A DNA stretch of 64,000 nt from Eledone cirrhosa (Eukaryota). Under the pieces are notes generated by a model. It did no database searches and was not told the DNA's origin. It saw only the letters and a program-made list of their open reading frames with translations. Positions 2,199 through 57,800 of the stretch are shown here, piece by piece; position 1 is the stretch's first letter; each line of letters begins with the position of its first letter. The stretch is taken from the NCBI GenBank assembly GCA_964016885.1, contig OZ024751.1, positions 29,822,001-29,886,000 of the forward strand, given 5' to 3'. Made by a program: the position numbers and the translations under genes.

Positions 2199-3439
2199 TG
2201 TGTGTGAGTGTGAGCATGTATACCTGTGTGTACAATAGTGTGTATTTATGTATATATATATATATATATATGTGTGTTTGTGTATATATATATATATATT
2301 TTTCCCTCTCATTTAATCTGTCACAGTCAGTCTCTTTTTCACTTCATCCTCTTCACCATTTTTCTCTATCTCCAAAGTACTTACTTACTGATGCCACAAT
2401 AACAGCAGCAACAGCAACAACAACAGAAGAAGAACTAGGAGAAGCATATCTCAGCTTCTGCACTATTTTTGCAATTGTCCATTCTGCGGTGGACTGAATT
2501 GGAAATCTGCGAAACACTCAATGAATGTTGCGACATGTACACCTATCTTTGTCTGTGATTATAGATAAGAAGAATTTCTATGCAATGCCTATTCTTGGCC
2601 ACCTATAGAACAGCTTTTAATATCAGCAGAGGTTGCTGTGGAAAATATTGTGGTATTTGCTCCACCATCACCACTACCTCACCTCAAGTTGCCCTGTATG
2701 GCCTCTCTCTCTTTCTCTCGCTCTCCAAACCCTCACCTCTGCCATCTACAATCCAGACTGGCCTTATTTTTCTCTGACATCATCAACCCTTAACCACCCC
2801 CTCTCTTCCTATTAAGCTTCACCCTCTGTTTGTGTGTGTTTATAATCTTTCATCTTTATGTGTGGACACAGAGTAAGAACGAATCAAGTACTGTTTGTGT
2901 TTCTGTGTCTATGACTGTAAGCTTTCCAAAATCCCATCACACTTTACATTACTACCACCACCTCTTCCTCTGTCTATCTCTCTATTCATTTATCTATCTA
3001 TCTTTATATATATATATGTGTGTGTGTGTGCGTGTGTATATACATATATATATATATGTACATGTACACACACATAAAGATATAACTGATGATGTATCTA
3101 TCTCTTTTATTGAGGTGTTGAAGTAGGTTGTGAGTGTGTGTGTGTATATATATATATATAATGAGAGAGGGAGAGAGAGAGAGAGAATGGCAGACAGACA
3201 GACAGATGGACAGCTAGATTCAGAGGCCTTCTGATGTGCTGACAAGATAATCTGCTTTTGGTTATTATTGCATGAATCAAATTCCCCGGGTAACATGTTC
3301 ATGGATAAAATGTGTTTGTCTGTCTGTCTGTGTTTGTATTTTTACAAATATGTATATATGTATATGTATTATTGTGTGTGTGTTTCAGTATGCATATATA
3401 TATATGTGTATATATATATATATATATTCATATATAATT

Positions 3440-4431
3440 AAGAATGTAGGATTCACATGCAGCAGCTGTGCTGAAACAGCAAGCAAACAGCCACAGGAAA
3501 CAAGTACCACCAATCTCTGGGAGGGCCCTGTAGAAACAGTAGACAGCTTCTGCTACCTAGGTGACCGAATTAGCAACGGAGGTGGGTGCTCAGAAAGTAC
3601 AATAACTAGGGTAAGAACGGGATGGAAGAAGTTTAGGGAACTACTACCACTGCTAGCTGCAAAAGGCTTCTCCCTCAGAATGAAAGGCAGACTGTATGAT
3701 GCGTGTATCCGAACAGCGATGTTGCATGGTAGTGAGACCTGGGCGCTGAAGGTGGAAGACTTACGTAGATTAGAGAGAAACGAAGCCTGCATGCTCCGAT
3801 GGATGTGTAACAGTAATATACGTGAACGACAAAGCATAAATGAATTGAGAGAGAGACTGAGCATAAGAGGAATCAAATGCTGCGTGCATGAGAGGCGGTT
3901 ACGCTGGTATGGACATGTGATGCGTATGAAGGATGACAGCTGCATAAAAAGGTGCAGAGCACTAGAAGTTGATGGAAACCGCGGAGTGGGGAGACCCAAG
4001 ATGACTTGGGATGAGGTGATAAAAGCCGACCTTACCCAACTACACCTCTCAAAGTCAATGACACACGACCGTGACTTCTGGCGTCACGCAGTAATACAGG
4101 GTACCCGACCTCCCATGGGTACATGCTGAAGCATATAAACGATATGCCCCCCCCCCCCCCCACCGCAAGGTGGTCGTGGAGGTGCCACGGCAAAAAAGCA
4201 CCCAGCCCACACTGTAAAGTGGACGTGTAGGCGCCACGAAAAAGCACCCAGCACTCACTGTAAATGAGGTTGGTGTTAGGAAGGGCATCCAGCTGTAGAA
4301 ATCAAGCCAGATCAGTTCCTGTATGAGCAAGGCATGGTCAGCCGACCAGACACTGCCCACAACAGGACAACCCGTCTAACCCATGCTAGCGTGGAAGAAC
4401 GGACGTAAAACGGTGATGATGATGATGATGA
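3440..4431 (+). mobile_element. 5'-truncated RTE-clade LINE: RT C-terminal ORF (to 4129), 3' UTR and (GAT)n tail
   Basis: Open frame with VDSFCYLG, KGRLYDACIRTAMLHGSETW, RRLRWYGHVMRM and GRPKMTW motifs typical of the RTE ORF C-terminus; tail CCCATGCTAGCGTGGAAGAACGGACGTAAAACGGTGATGATG. Confidence 0.92.
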
Positions 4432-22428: not shown

Positions 22429-23432
22429 AATACTAACAAATACTGTTCCTGCTTTGTCTTTTTGGAGTCCCTAAACGTTTCTGTATATGAAGACAATAAT
22501 TAAATGTATACACATTTGTTTACAGCAAGGCATATAATGATTTATTTATTTAATTTCACTTTTCTTTTAATTATTTTACATATAATAAATACAAAACATT
22601 ATAGTTATACCGACGTTATATTTATCTTAGATTTCTTTATATACACAGTTTGGTGCATAAATATTCACCATGAAAACAGTTGAAGCAATTTAGTTTCAAG
22701 CAGCAATTTCTTTCATAAGTTTTCAGAATAAATTTTCATTTCACATAAGCATTTAGTTCAGTGTTAAGTACAGTTTAGAGTTATGTTGGAATAATAAAAG
22801 TTTTAACCAATTAACTACTTTATGGATGGCTGAGCAGGATAAATTAATATTTAATCAGATATGTGTGTGGTATTCTGAATTCATACTTGCATAATTTCTA
22901 ATCAAATCATTCAGTCTATTTGCTGAACTACTACAACCTCACACTTGAATTCATTCTATTTTGTATTCATTTGATCATCTTTTGGCACTGAAATCTTCCA
23001 AACTTTGTGGCAGCTTCTTTATGTCATCTTCTGACTTGTCTCTCTTTCTCATTTTCTTTCTAATGATGCACTGCGATAGAATGTATATAGAGACTGATTA
23101 ACCTCATCACTACTGACCCACCTGAAATACTACTTCTGGTGGTTTCTCTCAGAGGAAGCAGTCCATTTTAAAGTGTTTGTGTCTAAATTAAAACCTTCCT
23201 GCATAGTTTTATGTGAGAACTATGTTATTGTCAAGTTCTCAACAACAACTTCATGTAAAACTCTTGATTGTCTTCTGTTTTGTTTTTTGCTTCTTCCAAA
23301 ATTCATTTTAACATGGTCATGAAAGAGTTAAGACTTAGACTGTACATTTAGAAACGTTGTGCCACTAGATTCAGATGATTTAGTTGAACTTTTAACTATA
23401 AGCCTACTTTGTACTACTGATATATATATATG

Positions 23433-23512
23433 GGAAAATGTTTGACCCTGACGGCAGAGCTCAAGCCATTTTGAAACAGCTTGAACTCTGTCGTCGGGGT
23501 CAAACATTTTCC
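23433..23512. repeat. 34-bp-arm hairpin at the end of a dispersed repeat
   Basis: GGAAAATGTTTGACCCTGACGGCAGAGCTCAAGC pairs with GCTTGAACTCTGTCGTCGGGGTCAAACATTTTCC (two G-U, one mismatch). Confidence 0.8.
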
Positions 23513-23761
23513 TATTACCCACTCTACTACCCTAAGTATTGAGTACTTTGGTGCGTTATGGTCCATCTGGTTCCTCACCACACCTCCTTCGTTGTATATT
23601 AGAATCGGTGCTCTGAAATAGCGATGTATATATGAATGTATATATAGTATGCTTAATTAAATATATAGTATGCTTAATTAAAAACATTTTGAAGACCTTA
23701 CGCTATTGTTTTAAAGTAGTGACTATGTCACTTACTTCTTTTTTCAACAAAAAAAGGGAGA

Positions 23762-23809
23762 TAAGCTGATAGATCTCTGTTTCTTACTGTTGGTAATCAT
23801 CAGAGTTTA
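23762..23809 (-). ncRNA. Type I hammerhead ribozyme, inverted sister copy
   Basis: Reverse complement reads TAAACT-CTGATGA-TTAC caaca GTAA-GAAA-CAGAGATCTA-TC-AGCTTA. Stem II is TTAC/GTAA (compensatory versus the + copy); one mismatch each in stems I and III. Confidence 0.7.
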
Positions 23810-23977
23810 GCACTCGCCTTTGTCTGTTGAAAATTATAAATGTTGGATTCTTATAGAATTCCAGTAATAATCAGGAACTGATTATACAGAACAATTGCCA
23901 GTCCAGCAAAAATTGAATTCTATAAAAATTCTATAAGAATCCAACATTTATAATTTTCAACAGGCAAAGGCGAGTGC

Positions 23978-24025
23978 TAAGCTCTGATGAGTACCAACAG
24001 TATGAAACAGAGATCTGTCAGCTTA
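23978..24025 (+). ncRNA. Type I hammerhead ribozyme, canonical core, GUC cleavage triplet
   Basis: TAAGCT-CTGATGA-GTAC caaca GTAT-GAAA-CAGAGATCTG-TC-AGCTTA. Stem I TAAGCT/AGCTTA (6 bp), stem II GTAC/GTAT, stem III ACAG/CTGT; predicted cut after C24019. Confidence 0.85.
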
Positions 24026-24189
24026 TCTCCCTTTGTTTGTTGAAAAAAGAAGTAAGTGACATAGTCACTACTTGAAAATAATAGGGTAAGGTCTTCAAAA
24101 TGTTTTTAATTAAAGATACAGTATATTGCCAAATATACTATATATATATATATATATATATTGTTATATATTGTTATATATATATATTG

Positions 24190-24263
<74 letters not shown>

Positions 24264-24355
24264 ATATATATATATATATTGTTATATATATATATATATA
24301 TTGTTATATATATATATATATATACATTCATATATATATATATATATATATTGTT

Positions 24356-24462
<107 letters not shown>

Positions 24463-34042: not shown

Positions 34043-34664
34043 TTATATATTTATATTGAATTATATATTTTTTTTATCGTTCTACATTATTGGTTAAAAT
34101 TGATTATTGATTTGGGTTCTACCATAGATATATTGCCCTCACCCTGACATATCTAGCTAGGAACAGTTTTTTTTTCCTGGTCCACATCTATTGTTTTTTG
34201 CAAAAATATATATTTTTTCATATATTTTTTGGTTCTTTTGTTTTTGCATTTTTTTTTAGGGTTTCTTGTTTGTTTTTTGTAGTAAGAACCTAAGAATAAT
34301 GTCGTAAAGCAATAAAATATCAATCAACTGTATGTTTGTGGCCCTTTAGCTTGAACTAATTAAGTTTCCCCCTGATGTGCAGATATGTCAGAGAAGAGAG
34401 GAAAGTCTGATCTATATATTTTCTCATACAACAAATTGGTTGCCTTGCTACATTGATCTAGAAGATAGAAAAATACATAAAAATTATCTGATCAAATGCT
34501 TGGCCTTTCCTCTCCTCCTTTACATACACCATCTCTCTCTGCCTACCTACCTATACACACACCACACACTCACAAAATGTTGCAATGTCAGATATGGCTT
34601 TACTTTTGATCCGTTACACCAGAACATTACTAGTATTTAATTCATCAACCCTCCACCCATATCT

Positions 34665-35250
34665 AGTACTGGTTCCATCATAAAATTGCACCCAGCTGAC
34701 TCTGTAAAGTGGTAGTGCTAGTATCACAATAAAAAAGCACCCACCCAACTCTGTAAACTGGTTCCACAATAAAAATGAATCCAGCCTGCTTTGTAAAGTG
34801 ATAGTGCAGGTGCCATGATAAAATACACCCAGCCCACTTTGTAAAGTGATAGAGCTGGTCTCATAATGAAAATACACCCAGTCCACTTTGTAAAGTGATA
34901 GTGCTGGTCCCATAATGAAAATACACCCAGTCCACTTTGTAAAGTGATAGTGCTGGTCCCATAATGAAAATACACCCAGCCCACTTTGTAAAGTGATAGT
35001 GCTGGTCCCATAATGAAAATACACCCAGTCCACTTTGTAAAATGATAGAGCTGGTGCCATAATAAAAAGCACCTAGCCCACTTTGTAAAGTGATAGAGCT
35101 GGTCCCATAATGAAAATACACCCAGTCCACTTTGTAAAATGATAGAGCTGGTGCCATAATAAAAAGCACCCAGTCAACTTTGTGAGATAGTAGTGCTGGT
35201 GTTACAACAACAACAAAAAGTACTTAGTCCAACCTGTAAGGTGGTAGTGC
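34665..35250. repeat. 49-bp minisatellite related to the SINE family 1 / RTE 3' UTR internal segment
   Basis: GTAAAGTGATAGTGCTGGTCCCATAATGAAAATACACCCAGTCCACTTT tandem. Confidence 0.9.
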
Positions 35251-44679: not shown

Positions 44680-44957
44680 TGTCATGAGTCCAGAGGCTCA
44701 TCAGGCCAGTGCTTATCCTGGTTTTTGTGGGGTGAATTGACTGAGAATACATGACTTCCCCCTGGACAGGATGCTAGTCCATTGCAGGTTTAAAACCTCA
44801 GCTATTGCAGCTGGTACTCATTTTCAACTGAGTATACTGGAGCAATAGGAAATGAAGTGTTTTGCTCAAGAACGCAACACGCAACCCAGTCGAGGAATCG
44901 AACCCATGACATTATGATAATAAGTCCAACACCTTTACCACTAGGCCACGCACCTCC
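44680..44957 (-). mobile_element. tRNA-derived SINE; related copy at about 57875-58110
   Basis: CCCTGGACAGG...CATTTTCA.CTGAGTATACTGGAGCAA...AATGAAGTGTTTT.CTCAAGAAC...GGAAT.GAACCC shared by both loci. Confidence 0.75.
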
Positions 44958-45405
44958 ACTGAGTATTTCACAGATATATACAAGTCCAACACCTTTACCC
45001 CTAGGCCACGCACCTCCACTGAGTATTTCACAGATATATACAAGTCCAACACCTTTACCACTAGGCCACGCACCTCCACTGAGTATTTCACAGATATATA
45101 CAAGTCCAACACCTTTACCACTAGGCCACGCACCTCCACTGAGTATTTCAAAGATATATACAAGTCCAACACCTTTACCACTAGGCCACGCACCTCCACT
45201 GAGTATTTCACAGATATATACAAGTCCAACACCTTTACCACTAGGCCACGCACCTCCACTGAGTATTTCACAGATATATACAAGTCCAACACCTTTACCA
45301 CTAGGCCACGCACCTCCACTGAGTATTTCACAGATATATACAAGTCCAACACCTTTACCACTAGGCCATGCACCTCCACTGAGTATTTCACAGATATATA
45401 CAAGT
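44922..45405. repeat. 60-bp tandem array (8 copies) spanning a SINE 5' end and its flank
   Basis: AAGTCCAACACCTTTACCACTAGGCCACGCACCTCCACTGAGTATTTCACAGATATATAC, near-identical units. Confidence 0.95.
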
Positions 45406-46091
45406 ATCTTTAATGCTATTCCCTGGGTGAATCAACATGACACAATGTGATAAGTCTGGAAATTTGAATTACAGGTACAATCCAGAGAGAAGAATGTACC
45501 CCAGTACTTGAAAAGTACTTTATTAATTGGTCCTCAAAGGAAGAAAGGTAAAACTGTCCACAGACACATGTACTCTTCATGTAATTCTCTGGTAGAACCA
45601 ATTTGATAGAGTCGGTGACAAAGTCACTAAGTTTGGTCATTTGTATTTACAGGTGCAATACATCCAACAGGGCTTCTCTGCAGTTTCTATCTATACAATT
45701 TCTCTGCTACGGTTGGGTTTGGGGAGAGATGCCAACAGCCGTTTACACATACATAACAAAACATCACACACACACAGATGACAGACAAAGGAAAGTATGT
45801 GTGTGTGGAGTGGGCTGGTGGTGAGAAGATTATTCATTAAGTTTTGAAACTGTCCAGTACTTAGTGTTTTACCTTTAAGGTAAATTGGAAAAAGAAACCT
45901 CGTTAGTGTTGAACTAGTAGAAGTATTCTAGCATTGAAAAGGAAATTTGAGTAAAATTTGTTGGACAGGACTAAGTAACTAAAAATGAGACAAACAGCAA
46001 TGGTGAATGGATTAGACTAGAAGATTGTTAACTGGAGTCAGTCTACAATTACTGTATTTCTAATGAAATACACTCTATTTTAATTAATTTG

Positions 46092-56470: not shown

Positions 56471-56794
56471 ATTTAGTACAGACAGGAAAGTGGACATTAA
56501 ATGATGATGATGATGATGATGATAACGATGGTGTTATACACACCAGTGTGTTTTATATACTTGGAAATTACAGTATGTCTGTTTTAAACATAGATTCCTT
56601 CTATACAATGCACTTGATGTTATCCTCTGTAAAACCAGCAGTAAAAGCAGTTTTCTTTCATATCTACCATACTTAAATGGAGACGTAAGAATTATTTTTC
56701 TTTCTTATCTTTGTTGCATTTTTTTCCTTAAACACTCTTTTATATATATAAAAAAAAATACAAAATATCCAATTTATTCTTATTTATTCTTCAG

Positions 56795-56951
56795 ATCAGT
56801 CAACCGTCGCAGCACCTCAGTGACTTTCACTGGTGACGATGAGAGCATCATAGTTGCAGACAAGAGCGGAGATGTATATAAGTACTCTGTGACTGAACCC
56901 AACTCTGAAGGTCAACTGTTAATGGGTCATCTTTCAATGTTACTAGATATG
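56795..56951 (+). CDS. WDR4: Internal coding exon of WDR4/Trm82 (non-catalytic WD40 subunit of the tRNA m7G46 methyltransferase)
   Basis: Pyrimidine-rich tract and TTCAG acceptor end at 56794; GTAAGT donor at 56952. The 157-nt exon encodes (R)SVNRRSTSVTFTGDDESIIVADKSGDVYKYSVTEPNSEGQLLMGHLSMLLDM, matching the WDR4 signature ADKSGDVY...GHLSMLLD. Confidence 0.93.
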
Positions 56952-57559: not shown

Positions 57560-57800
57560 TACTTGGGGAGGGTCATATTGTTGTAATAATATTGCTAGAA
57601 ATAATAACAGCACACACTCAATGTTTGGTTGGTTTTCGCTTCTGTATCTTTTATATCTCCATAGTTAATTTATTTGGCAATCAAAAGGAAGTGTGGTAAG
57701 CAACCAGGTGGACCATAACGCACCAGAGTACTTGATACTTAGGGTAGTAGAGTGGGTAATAGGAAAAGAGTCATGACTGAGCTCCAGCCATTTTAACAGC
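57560..57800. repeat. Dispersed repeat whose parts occur inverted at 11855-11968 and 23510-23590
   Basis: TACTTGGGGAGGGTCATATTG... and GGACCATAACGCACCAGAGTACTTGATACTTAGGGTAGTAGAGTGGGTAATAGGAAAA matches. Confidence 0.75.

What the first reader, a model, noticed from the sequence alone, without database searches (positions are those of the whole stretch)
23978..24025. Complete canonical hammerhead with GUC site
All conserved core nucleotides are present (C3-A9 CTGATGA, GAAA, U16.1, C17), with 6-bp stem I, 4-bp stem II and 4-5 bp stem III. It could fold as a monomer, unlike the palindromic-stem-III type. It is on the same strand as the downstream WDR4 exon, so if it lies inside that or another transcription unit it could cut pre-mRNA (inference).
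Basis: partly seen in the sequence, partly recalled or inferred. Interest (0 to 1): 0.78.

Follow-up and report, generated by a model that had tools for sequence, protein, structure and literature searches.

The report
Octopus retrozyme hammerhead in inverted insertion
The self-cutting RNA motif is really there, but it is one of over a thousand copies carried by a small repeated element in this octopus genome, likely a parasite of Penelope-like retrotransposons, and its own mirror-image copy next door is predicted to pair with it and keep it from cutting the WDR4 gene transcript it sits in.

Summary
The type I hammerhead at 23978-24025 is real (1 hit in the window, 0.005 per shuffle), but pair 10.1-11.1 is G·U, not G-C, and that G is private to this copy. 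It lies in one arm of a 201-nt, 94% inverted repeat formed by two divergent copies of a ~313-nt non-coding head-to-tail unit. The genome, an octopod's, holds at least 1154 exact cores of this family, with compensatory stem changes between subfamilies. Insertions show Penelope-like marks: 55 of 96 are divergent inversions, 38 of those 55 have one end ~24 nt longer, and ends often abut (TA)n. Verdict: a non-LTR retrozyme, a known kind; my searches found none reported for octopods. The site is in a ~465-kb sense intron of WDR4. There the antisense arm is transcribed first, and the hammerhead fold is predicted to cost 60-71 kcal/mol (3 alone). WDR4 holds 13 sense hammerhead motifs, with no strand bias. 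Host pre-mRNA cutting is unlikely. No cleavage or RNA was observed. The scan noted similar Penelope-type inserts on other DNA before.

The parts
23978..24025 (+). Type I hammerhead core (C3 23984, G10.1·U11.1 23991/24003, C17 24019)
23954..24046 (+). Extended hammerhead: distal 17-bp stem I (23954-23970/24030-24046) and internal loop CGAGTGC/TCTC
   Evidence: compensatory changes between subfamilies
23927..24145 (+). Right arm: 5'-truncated retrozyme unit (from monomer position 57), 'short' 3' end running into (TA)n; 2.7% from its subfamily majority sequence
23598..23916 (-). Left arm: one full retrozyme unit in inverted orientation, 'long' 3' end with the ~24-nt tail; 4.3% from its subfamily majority sequence; local 21-nt duplication 23640-23681
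23762..23809 (-). Second, degraded hammerhead (C3 23803, C17 23768; U10.1-A11.1, mismatches in stems I and III, AUC site); predicted fold 14 kcal/mol off its ensemble
23660..24127 (.). Inverted repeat, 201-nt arms (23660-23860, 23927-24127), 94% complementary; predicted ~200-bp hairpin in any read-through transcript
23916..23926 (+). Inversion junction with a 10-nt duplication of the right-arm start
   Evidence: read directly
24137..24460 (.). (TA)n microsatellite at the right end (likely target, expanded)
23431..23597 (+). Unrelated abundant short repeat with its own 5' inversion; the retrozyme sits in the TA run at its 3' end
56795..56951 (+). WDR4 exon (acceptor AG 56793-56794, phase matches upstream exon ending at C11:29413721); 3' boundary of the intron that holds the insertion

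Best explanation
The hammerhead is the built-in ribozyme of a ~313-nt non-coding repeat with over a thousand copies in this octopod genome, a non-LTR retrozyme that is likely copied into TA repeats by the enzymes of an autonomous Penelope-like element, and at this locus it is predicted to be held inactive by its own inverted copy. Shown: the motif, the family, the head-to-tail ORF-less unit, the inverted and tailed ends, the intronic position. Inferred life cycle: a source copy is transcribed as a multimer; the hammerhead, perhaps as a dimer through self-complementary stem III, cuts it to monomers that may circularise; a PLE reverse transcriptase and GIY-YIG endonuclease nick (TA)n and start reverse transcription inside the RNA at two sites ~24 nt apart (monomer ~289 and ~313, about 140-165 nt past the cut site), one per DNA strand, which gives two divergent arms, one with the tail. 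This copy has since decayed neutrally. In the WDR4 pre-mRNA the antisense arm is made first and would zip up the right arm as it emerges, so little or no cleavage is expected.
For: Family: 60 scored matches at 89-100% from 2265 candidates; 1154 exact cores, reversed control 0. Unit: head-to-tail joints in loci (33 of 116 long ends continue into the next unit) and in public contigs; the unit folded as a circle gives z -7.3 against 100 shuffles. Structure kept across subfamilies: 90.9% of cells paired against 43-50% when slid; 10 pairs change on both sides against 2-6 when slid; stem II variants ATAC/GTAT, ACAC/GTGT, TCGC/GCGT, GTAC/GTAC. PLE marks: 55 of 96 insertions divergent; of these 38 long+short, 3 short+short, 0 long+long, 14 with another end; 98 of 190 ends at 280 or beyond are followed by TA runs. 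PMC8557442 (passages) and PMC11167929 (parts 1-2 of 4) describe inversions, tails and AT targets as PLE features, the tail as unique to PLEs. Long RT+GIY-YIG ORFs are in the genome, and one PLE locus (L096) has the same divergent, long/short, TA-flanked anatomy and a hammerhead with U·U at 10.1-11.1. Locus not special: arms 2.7% and 4.3% from the subfamily majority, median 3.5%; G10.1 in 1 of 41 subfamily copies. Masking: 60-71 kcal/mol. 13 sense and 9 antisense hammerhead motifs in the 1.2-Mb WDR4 span, 0-1 per shuffle.
Against: No cleavage, transcript or circle was observed. No autonomous PLE sharing sequence with the unit was found among 40 GIY-YIG loci, so the partner is unidentified. Only 4 of 96 sampled insertions hold two same-strand cores; long tandem arrays typical of retrozymes were not seen. 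In one search the count of pairs changed on both sides (10) did not exceed the shuffle control (9.6; 265 of 500), and cells count related sequences, not events. The 96 insertions are best hits and first places on C1, not a random sample. Folding is equilibrium 2D modelling without Mg2+, tertiary contacts or proteins. The WDR4 span has three 200-N assembly gaps, one inside this intron.
Confidence: 0.85

Rival explanations
1. It is the 5'-truncated terminal repeat (pLTR) of an autonomous Penelope-like element, not a self-contained retrozyme.
For: Same insertion marks as PLEs. Xenopus retrozymes resemble pLTRs (bioRxiv 10.64898/2026.07.22.740005, parts 1-3 of 5). One GIY-YIG fragment lies ~650 nt from a family insertion (L062).
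Against: What precedes position 1 is position 313 of the same unit. In L062 the element sits in its own TA run, as an inverted pair, past the PLE 3' region. No PLE terminal region examined aligns to the unit beyond TA runs.
Confidence: 0.08
2. The ribozyme cuts WDR4 pre-mRNA in vivo and modulates its splicing or output.
For: Sense orientation inside the WDR4 intron, 33 kb before the next exon; intact catalytic core; isolated fold only ~3 kcal/mol off.
Against: The antisense arm precedes it (60-71 kcal/mol); ordinary decay of this copy; 12 other sense motifs in the same gene, 9 unshielded, no strand bias (9 vs 7, p 0.80). PMC2995048 (passages) reports that introns cut by slower hammerheads are still spliced. 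1 of 9 Xenopus retrozyme dimers cut in vitro.
Confidence: 0.04
3. It is a MITE or foldback DNA transposon with long terminal inverted repeats; the hammerhead is a passenger.
For: Long near-perfect inverted repeat, no ORF, TA flanks.
Against: Arm lengths and inversion points differ from copy to copy; 23 of 96 insertions are single and 16 tandem; the two outer ends differ by a tail; the stems covary.
Confidence: 0.03

Closest known systems
Metazoan non-LTR retrozymes (Cervera and de la Pena 2020, PMC7229834: coral, mussel Mytilus 350-390 nt, axolotl 330/350 nt)
   Same: 150-450-nt AT-rich non-coding unit, one type I hammerhead per unit, head-to-tail joints, strongly self-paired predicted circle, PLEs in the same genome. 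Axolotl HHR_Amex2 also has U·U at the base of stem II and still cuts.
   Different: Mostly dispersed 1-2-unit insertions with PLE-type inversions and tails rather than long arrays; 17-bp distal stem I; 4-bp stem III; no TSD discernible in TA runs; expression untested.
Penelope-like elements (Neptune-type ORFs with a CxxxxCxxC linker are in this genome; clade label from recalled knowledge and PMC8557442 passages)
   Same: 5' truncation, partial tandems, inverted 5' copy, tail at one end, (TA)n targets, hammerhead near the 3' end.
   Different: No ORF; the unit closes on itself; no sequence link to the PLEs sampled.
Vertebrate retrozymes as non-autonomous PLE derivatives (bioRxiv 10.64898/2026.07.22.740005)
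   Same: Same proposed dependence on PLEs; intronic copies common (42-44% in Xenopus).
   Different: That work argues from co-occurrence and pLTR phylogeny in 35 genomes with no mollusc; in the parts read it does not analyse insertion ends, which is the evidence here.
Host-conserved intronic ribozymes (amniote RECK/HH9-type hammerheads, recalled; CPEB3 HDV-like, search listing)
   Same: Sense orientation in a large intron.
   Different: Those are single-copy and conserved; this is a decaying repeat copy with an antisense arm.

Membership tests
Type I hammerhead ribozyme | Core C3-U4-G5-A6-N7-G8-A9, G12-A13-A14, A15.1-U16.1, H17 | tested here: met
Type I hammerhead ribozyme | Three helices, stem I open | tested here: met
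   6/4/4 bp; pairing kept across 41 copies
Type I hammerhead ribozyme | G10.1-C11.1 pair (highly conserved per PMC4209133; natural exceptions in PMC7229834, PMC2837043) | tested here: not met
   G·U here; G-C in 82 of 1154 cores, A-U or U·U in most
Type I hammerhead ribozyme | Loop 1-loop 2 tertiary contact | tested here: inconclusive
   Loop CAACA nearly invariant and internal loop present; contact not modelled; no Rfam match
Type I hammerhead ribozyme | Self-cleavage after H17 | not testable with these tools
   needs an in vitro assay
Non-LTR retrozyme | 150-450-nt non-coding unit, GC under 50%, with a type I hammerhead | tested here: met
   313-nt AT-rich unit
Non-LTR retrozyme | Head-to-tail tandem organisation, many genomic copies | tested here: met
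   joints; 1154 cores; only 4 of 96 insertions hold two same-strand cores
Non-LTR retrozyme | No LTR, no ORF | tested here: met
   unit joins itself; no PLE ORF attached in the insertions sampled
Non-LTR retrozyme | Expressed as linear and circular monomer RNA | not testable with these tools
   needs northern or divergent RT-PCR
Penelope-like element (autonomous) | RT + GIY-YIG ORF joined to the terminal repeat | tested here: not met
Penelope-like element (autonomous) | Inverted 5'-truncated copy, tail at one end, microsatellite target | tested here: met
   55 of 96 divergent; 38 of 55 long+short
MITE / foldback DNA transposon | Fixed terminal inverted repeats at both ends of each copy | tested here: not met
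   variable arms, single and tandem copies

The most novel reading that the evidence does not exclude
This octopod family gives direct genomic evidence that animal retrozymes are inserted by Penelope-like machinery: an ORF-less, self-joining hammerhead RNA leaves the PLE-specific two-site 'tail', 5' inversions and (TA)n targeting, which maps the two reverse-transcription start sites on a likely circular template and supplies a 313-nt natural substrate to reconstitute the step in vitro. Because both arms point outward, any read-through transcript meets the antisense arm first, so the insertion mechanism itself disarms the ribozyme.
Probability: 0.5. Interest if true: 0.5.

Novelty: new member of a known kind. 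Interest (0 to 1): 0.3.

Why it matters
For WDR4 it most likely does not matter. For retroelement biology, how non-LTR retrozymes get into DNA is still a hypothesis in the papers read. A family with over a thousand copies, several subfamilies and sharp PLE-type ends makes that step testable and extends retrozymes to cephalopods. The subfamilies also form a natural series for hammerhead chemistry: G-C, A-U, U·U and G·U at 10.1-11.1, and loop 3 of 1-4 nt. As a caution for scans: a perfect-looking hammerhead must be folded with its flanks.

Tried and rejected
Rfam: no hammerhead family; only miRNA-hairpin look-alikes of the inverted repeat, all below gathering score. Phage collection: no match. 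Pfam did not name the WDR4 exon; PDB and protein searches did. Public runs: no RNA holder listed, which says nothing on expression; small-share runs X6 and X8 gave 1-2 contigs at depth 2. Autonomous partner: none of 40 GIY-YIG loci has the unit as its terminal repeat; five PLE-type hammerhead regions score 28-37 against shuffle maxima of 32-34, all from TA runs. A-to-I editing imprint in copies: rejected (A>G 76, T>C 69, p 0.87; 108 of 124 copies, 16 unclassified dropped). Purging of unshielded sense hammerheads from introns: looked suggestive in this one intron (1 sense, 5 antisense) but vanished over the whole gene (9 vs 7, p 0.80), so masking is not shown to be selected. Hammerhead core in the left neighbour repeat: none in 12 of 12 copies read. 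5' truncation points show no peak at the cut site. The supplement of PMC7229834 could not be read and may list cephalopod retrozymes; bioRxiv supplements are closed.

Full report
Observation. The 48-nt motif is as described: 6-bp stem I, CTGATGA, 4-bp stem II, GAAA, 4-bp stem III, GUC with C17 at 24019. It is the only descriptor hit in the window; shuffles give 0.005. Three corrections. Pair 10.1-11.1 is G·U, not the G-C that PMC4209133 (passages) calls highly conserved. Stem I continues into a 17-bp distal helix. Stem III is still self-complementary: -1.8 kcal/mol as a hairpin, -12.2 as a dimer. Rfam does not detect the motif.

Surroundings. The motif lies in the right arm of a 201-nt, 94% inverted repeat, 23660-23860 / 23927-24127. 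The left arm carries a degraded hammerhead on the minus strand. The left arm is one full ~313-nt unit (23916 to 23598); the right arm is a 5'-truncated unit that runs into a TA microsatellite. The left end sits at the TA-rich 3' end of another abundant repeat.

Host. The genome is 3.0 Gb. The exon at 56795-56951 is WDR4, 87% identical to the Octopus bimaculoides protein, so the host is an octopod. With the longest isoform, exons map colinearly over ~1.2 Mb of contig C11. The upstream exon ends AG|GTAAGT and the window exon starts with A, completing an Arg codon. The hammerhead is therefore sense in a 465,073-nt intron that includes one 200-N gap.

Family. A DNA search gave 60 scored matches from 2265 candidates. 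A relaxed core pattern has 1154 exact matches, reversed control 0; this is a lower bound. 98 have G10.1; 80 of those read GTAC/GTAC, and the window's exact 27-mer occurs twice. In its own subfamily the G is seen in 1 of 41 copies, and the arms are 2.7% and 4.3% from the majority sequence, median 3.5%: ordinary decay. A second subfamily ~80% identical was found. On 41 chosen copies of 112 distinct ones, 90.9% of cells pair against 43-50% with slid partners; 10 pairs change on both sides against 2-6 slid, but that count does not beat the shuffle control (9.6), and related copies inflate the cell counts. Loop 3 is 1, 2, 3 or 4 nt by subfamily. The unit folded as a circle has z -7.3. Contigs of two other coded organisms, B and C, hold relatives; B shows the head-to-tail joint.

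Insertion anatomy. Among 96 distinct insertions (best hits and first places, not random): 55 divergent, 23 single, 16 tandem, 2 complex. 3' ends pile at monomer ~289 and ~313. Of the 55 divergent ones, 38 have one long and one short end, 3 short+short, none long+long, 14 another end. The reference ends at 313, so 'long' is a cut-off, and continuations under 30 nt could be missed. 98 of 190 ends at 280 or beyond are followed by TA runs, and 33 long ends continue into the next unit. PMC8557442 (passages) lists 5' truncation, partial tandems, an inverted 5' copy, a 30-40-bp tail at one end and microsatellite bias as PLE features. PMC11167929 (parts 1-2 of 4) ties the tail to two internal RT start sites and found the hammerhead dispensable for insertion in vitro. 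The genome has many GIY-YIG loci (10594 candidates) and long RT+GIY-YIG ORFs. Locus L096 shows the same anatomy around a PLE ORF. None of 40 such loci has this unit as its terminal repeat.

Mechanism. Shown: motif, family, unit, ends, position. Inferred: multimeric transcript, hammerhead processing (possibly dimeric), possible circularisation, and insertion by a PLE RT/endonuclease starting at two sites, one per nicked strand. Most copies span the cut site, so the template was a circle or an uncut multimer; the data do not separate these.

Does it cut WDR4 RNA? Alone, the hammerhead-compatible fold is 3.1 kcal/mol above the ensemble. With the left arm present it is 60-71 kcal/mol above, including nascent lengths ending just past the ribozyme, and all three helices have probability 0.00; the same holds for the minus strand. 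The WDR4 span holds 13 sense and 9 antisense hammerhead motifs, most from other repeat families, against 0-1 per shuffle; unshielded ones are 9 and 7. So intronic hammerhead motifs are common and tolerated, and masking is not shown to be selected. PMC2995048 (passages) reports that introns cut by slower hammerheads are still spliced. Only 1 of 9 Xenopus retrozyme dimers cut in vitro. I put in vitro cleavage of the isolated right arm at about 0.6 and meaningful pre-mRNA cleavage at about 0.04.

Known and new. It fits the non-LTR retrozymes of PMC7229834 (passages and parts 2-3 of 6), including a U·U at the base of stem II in one axolotl type; PMC2837043 (one passage) reports changes at 10.1/11.1 in crickets. 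bioRxiv 10.64898/2026.07.22.740005 (parts 1-3 of 5) argues that retrozymes depend on PLEs. Searches for hammerhead or retrozyme with octopus or cephalopod and for retrozyme insertion ends or antisense masking listed no paper describing this family; two searches were seen as listings only, apart from the papers named. The library lacks most subscription papers, Repbase and Dfam were not searchable, and the PMC7229834 supplement could not be read. Earlier scan notes on other genomes describe Penelope-type ends on a ribozyme-free tandem unit and a pLTR fragment in a ray intron; none for this genome or sequence.

Verdict. A real motif in an ordinary setting: a new member of a known kind, interest 0.3. 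The value lies in the family's insertion ends, not in this locus.

Noticed in passing
G000:C11:28901424-30101264 (window exon 56795-56951): WDR4, a ~400-aa housekeeping gene, spans ~1.2 Mb with introns of about 333, 179, 465, 106 and 96 kb; three 200-N gaps lie inside.
   Followed up: partly
G000:C11:28902001-30102000: 22 hammerhead motifs of at least seven sequence types in 1.2 Mb (about one per 55 kb), many with U·U or U·C at 10.1-11.1; several repeat families with their own hammerheads remain undescribed.
   Followed up: partly
window 23431-23597; also 57685-57767: Very abundant short repeat with 5' inversions and TA-flanked ends but no hammerhead core in 12 copies read; looks like another PLE-mobilised non-coding element.
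   Followed up: partly
L081:2809-5622 (-), L083:275-3562 (+), L082:2488-5019 (+): Long open PLE frames (938, 1096, 844 aa) with RT and GIY-YIG; no hammerhead found in the L081/L082 terminal regions.
   Followed up: partly
L084, L085, L088, L096: PLE family with a short palindromic-stem-III hammerhead ~385-410 nt after the ORF stop; L096 is a divergent pair with a ~45-nt tail at one end.
   Followed up: partly
L101:3507 (+) and 700 (-): Inverted pair of canonical G10.1-C11.1 hammerheads of yet another family, upstream of a PLE fragment.
   Followed up: no
window 3251-4129 (+): Open frame resembling the 3' end of an RTE-type LINE (from recall; Pfam gave no RT match).
   Followed up: no
window 34614-35223 and 44794-45450: Minisatellite arrays giving long repetitive open frames.
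   Followed up: no
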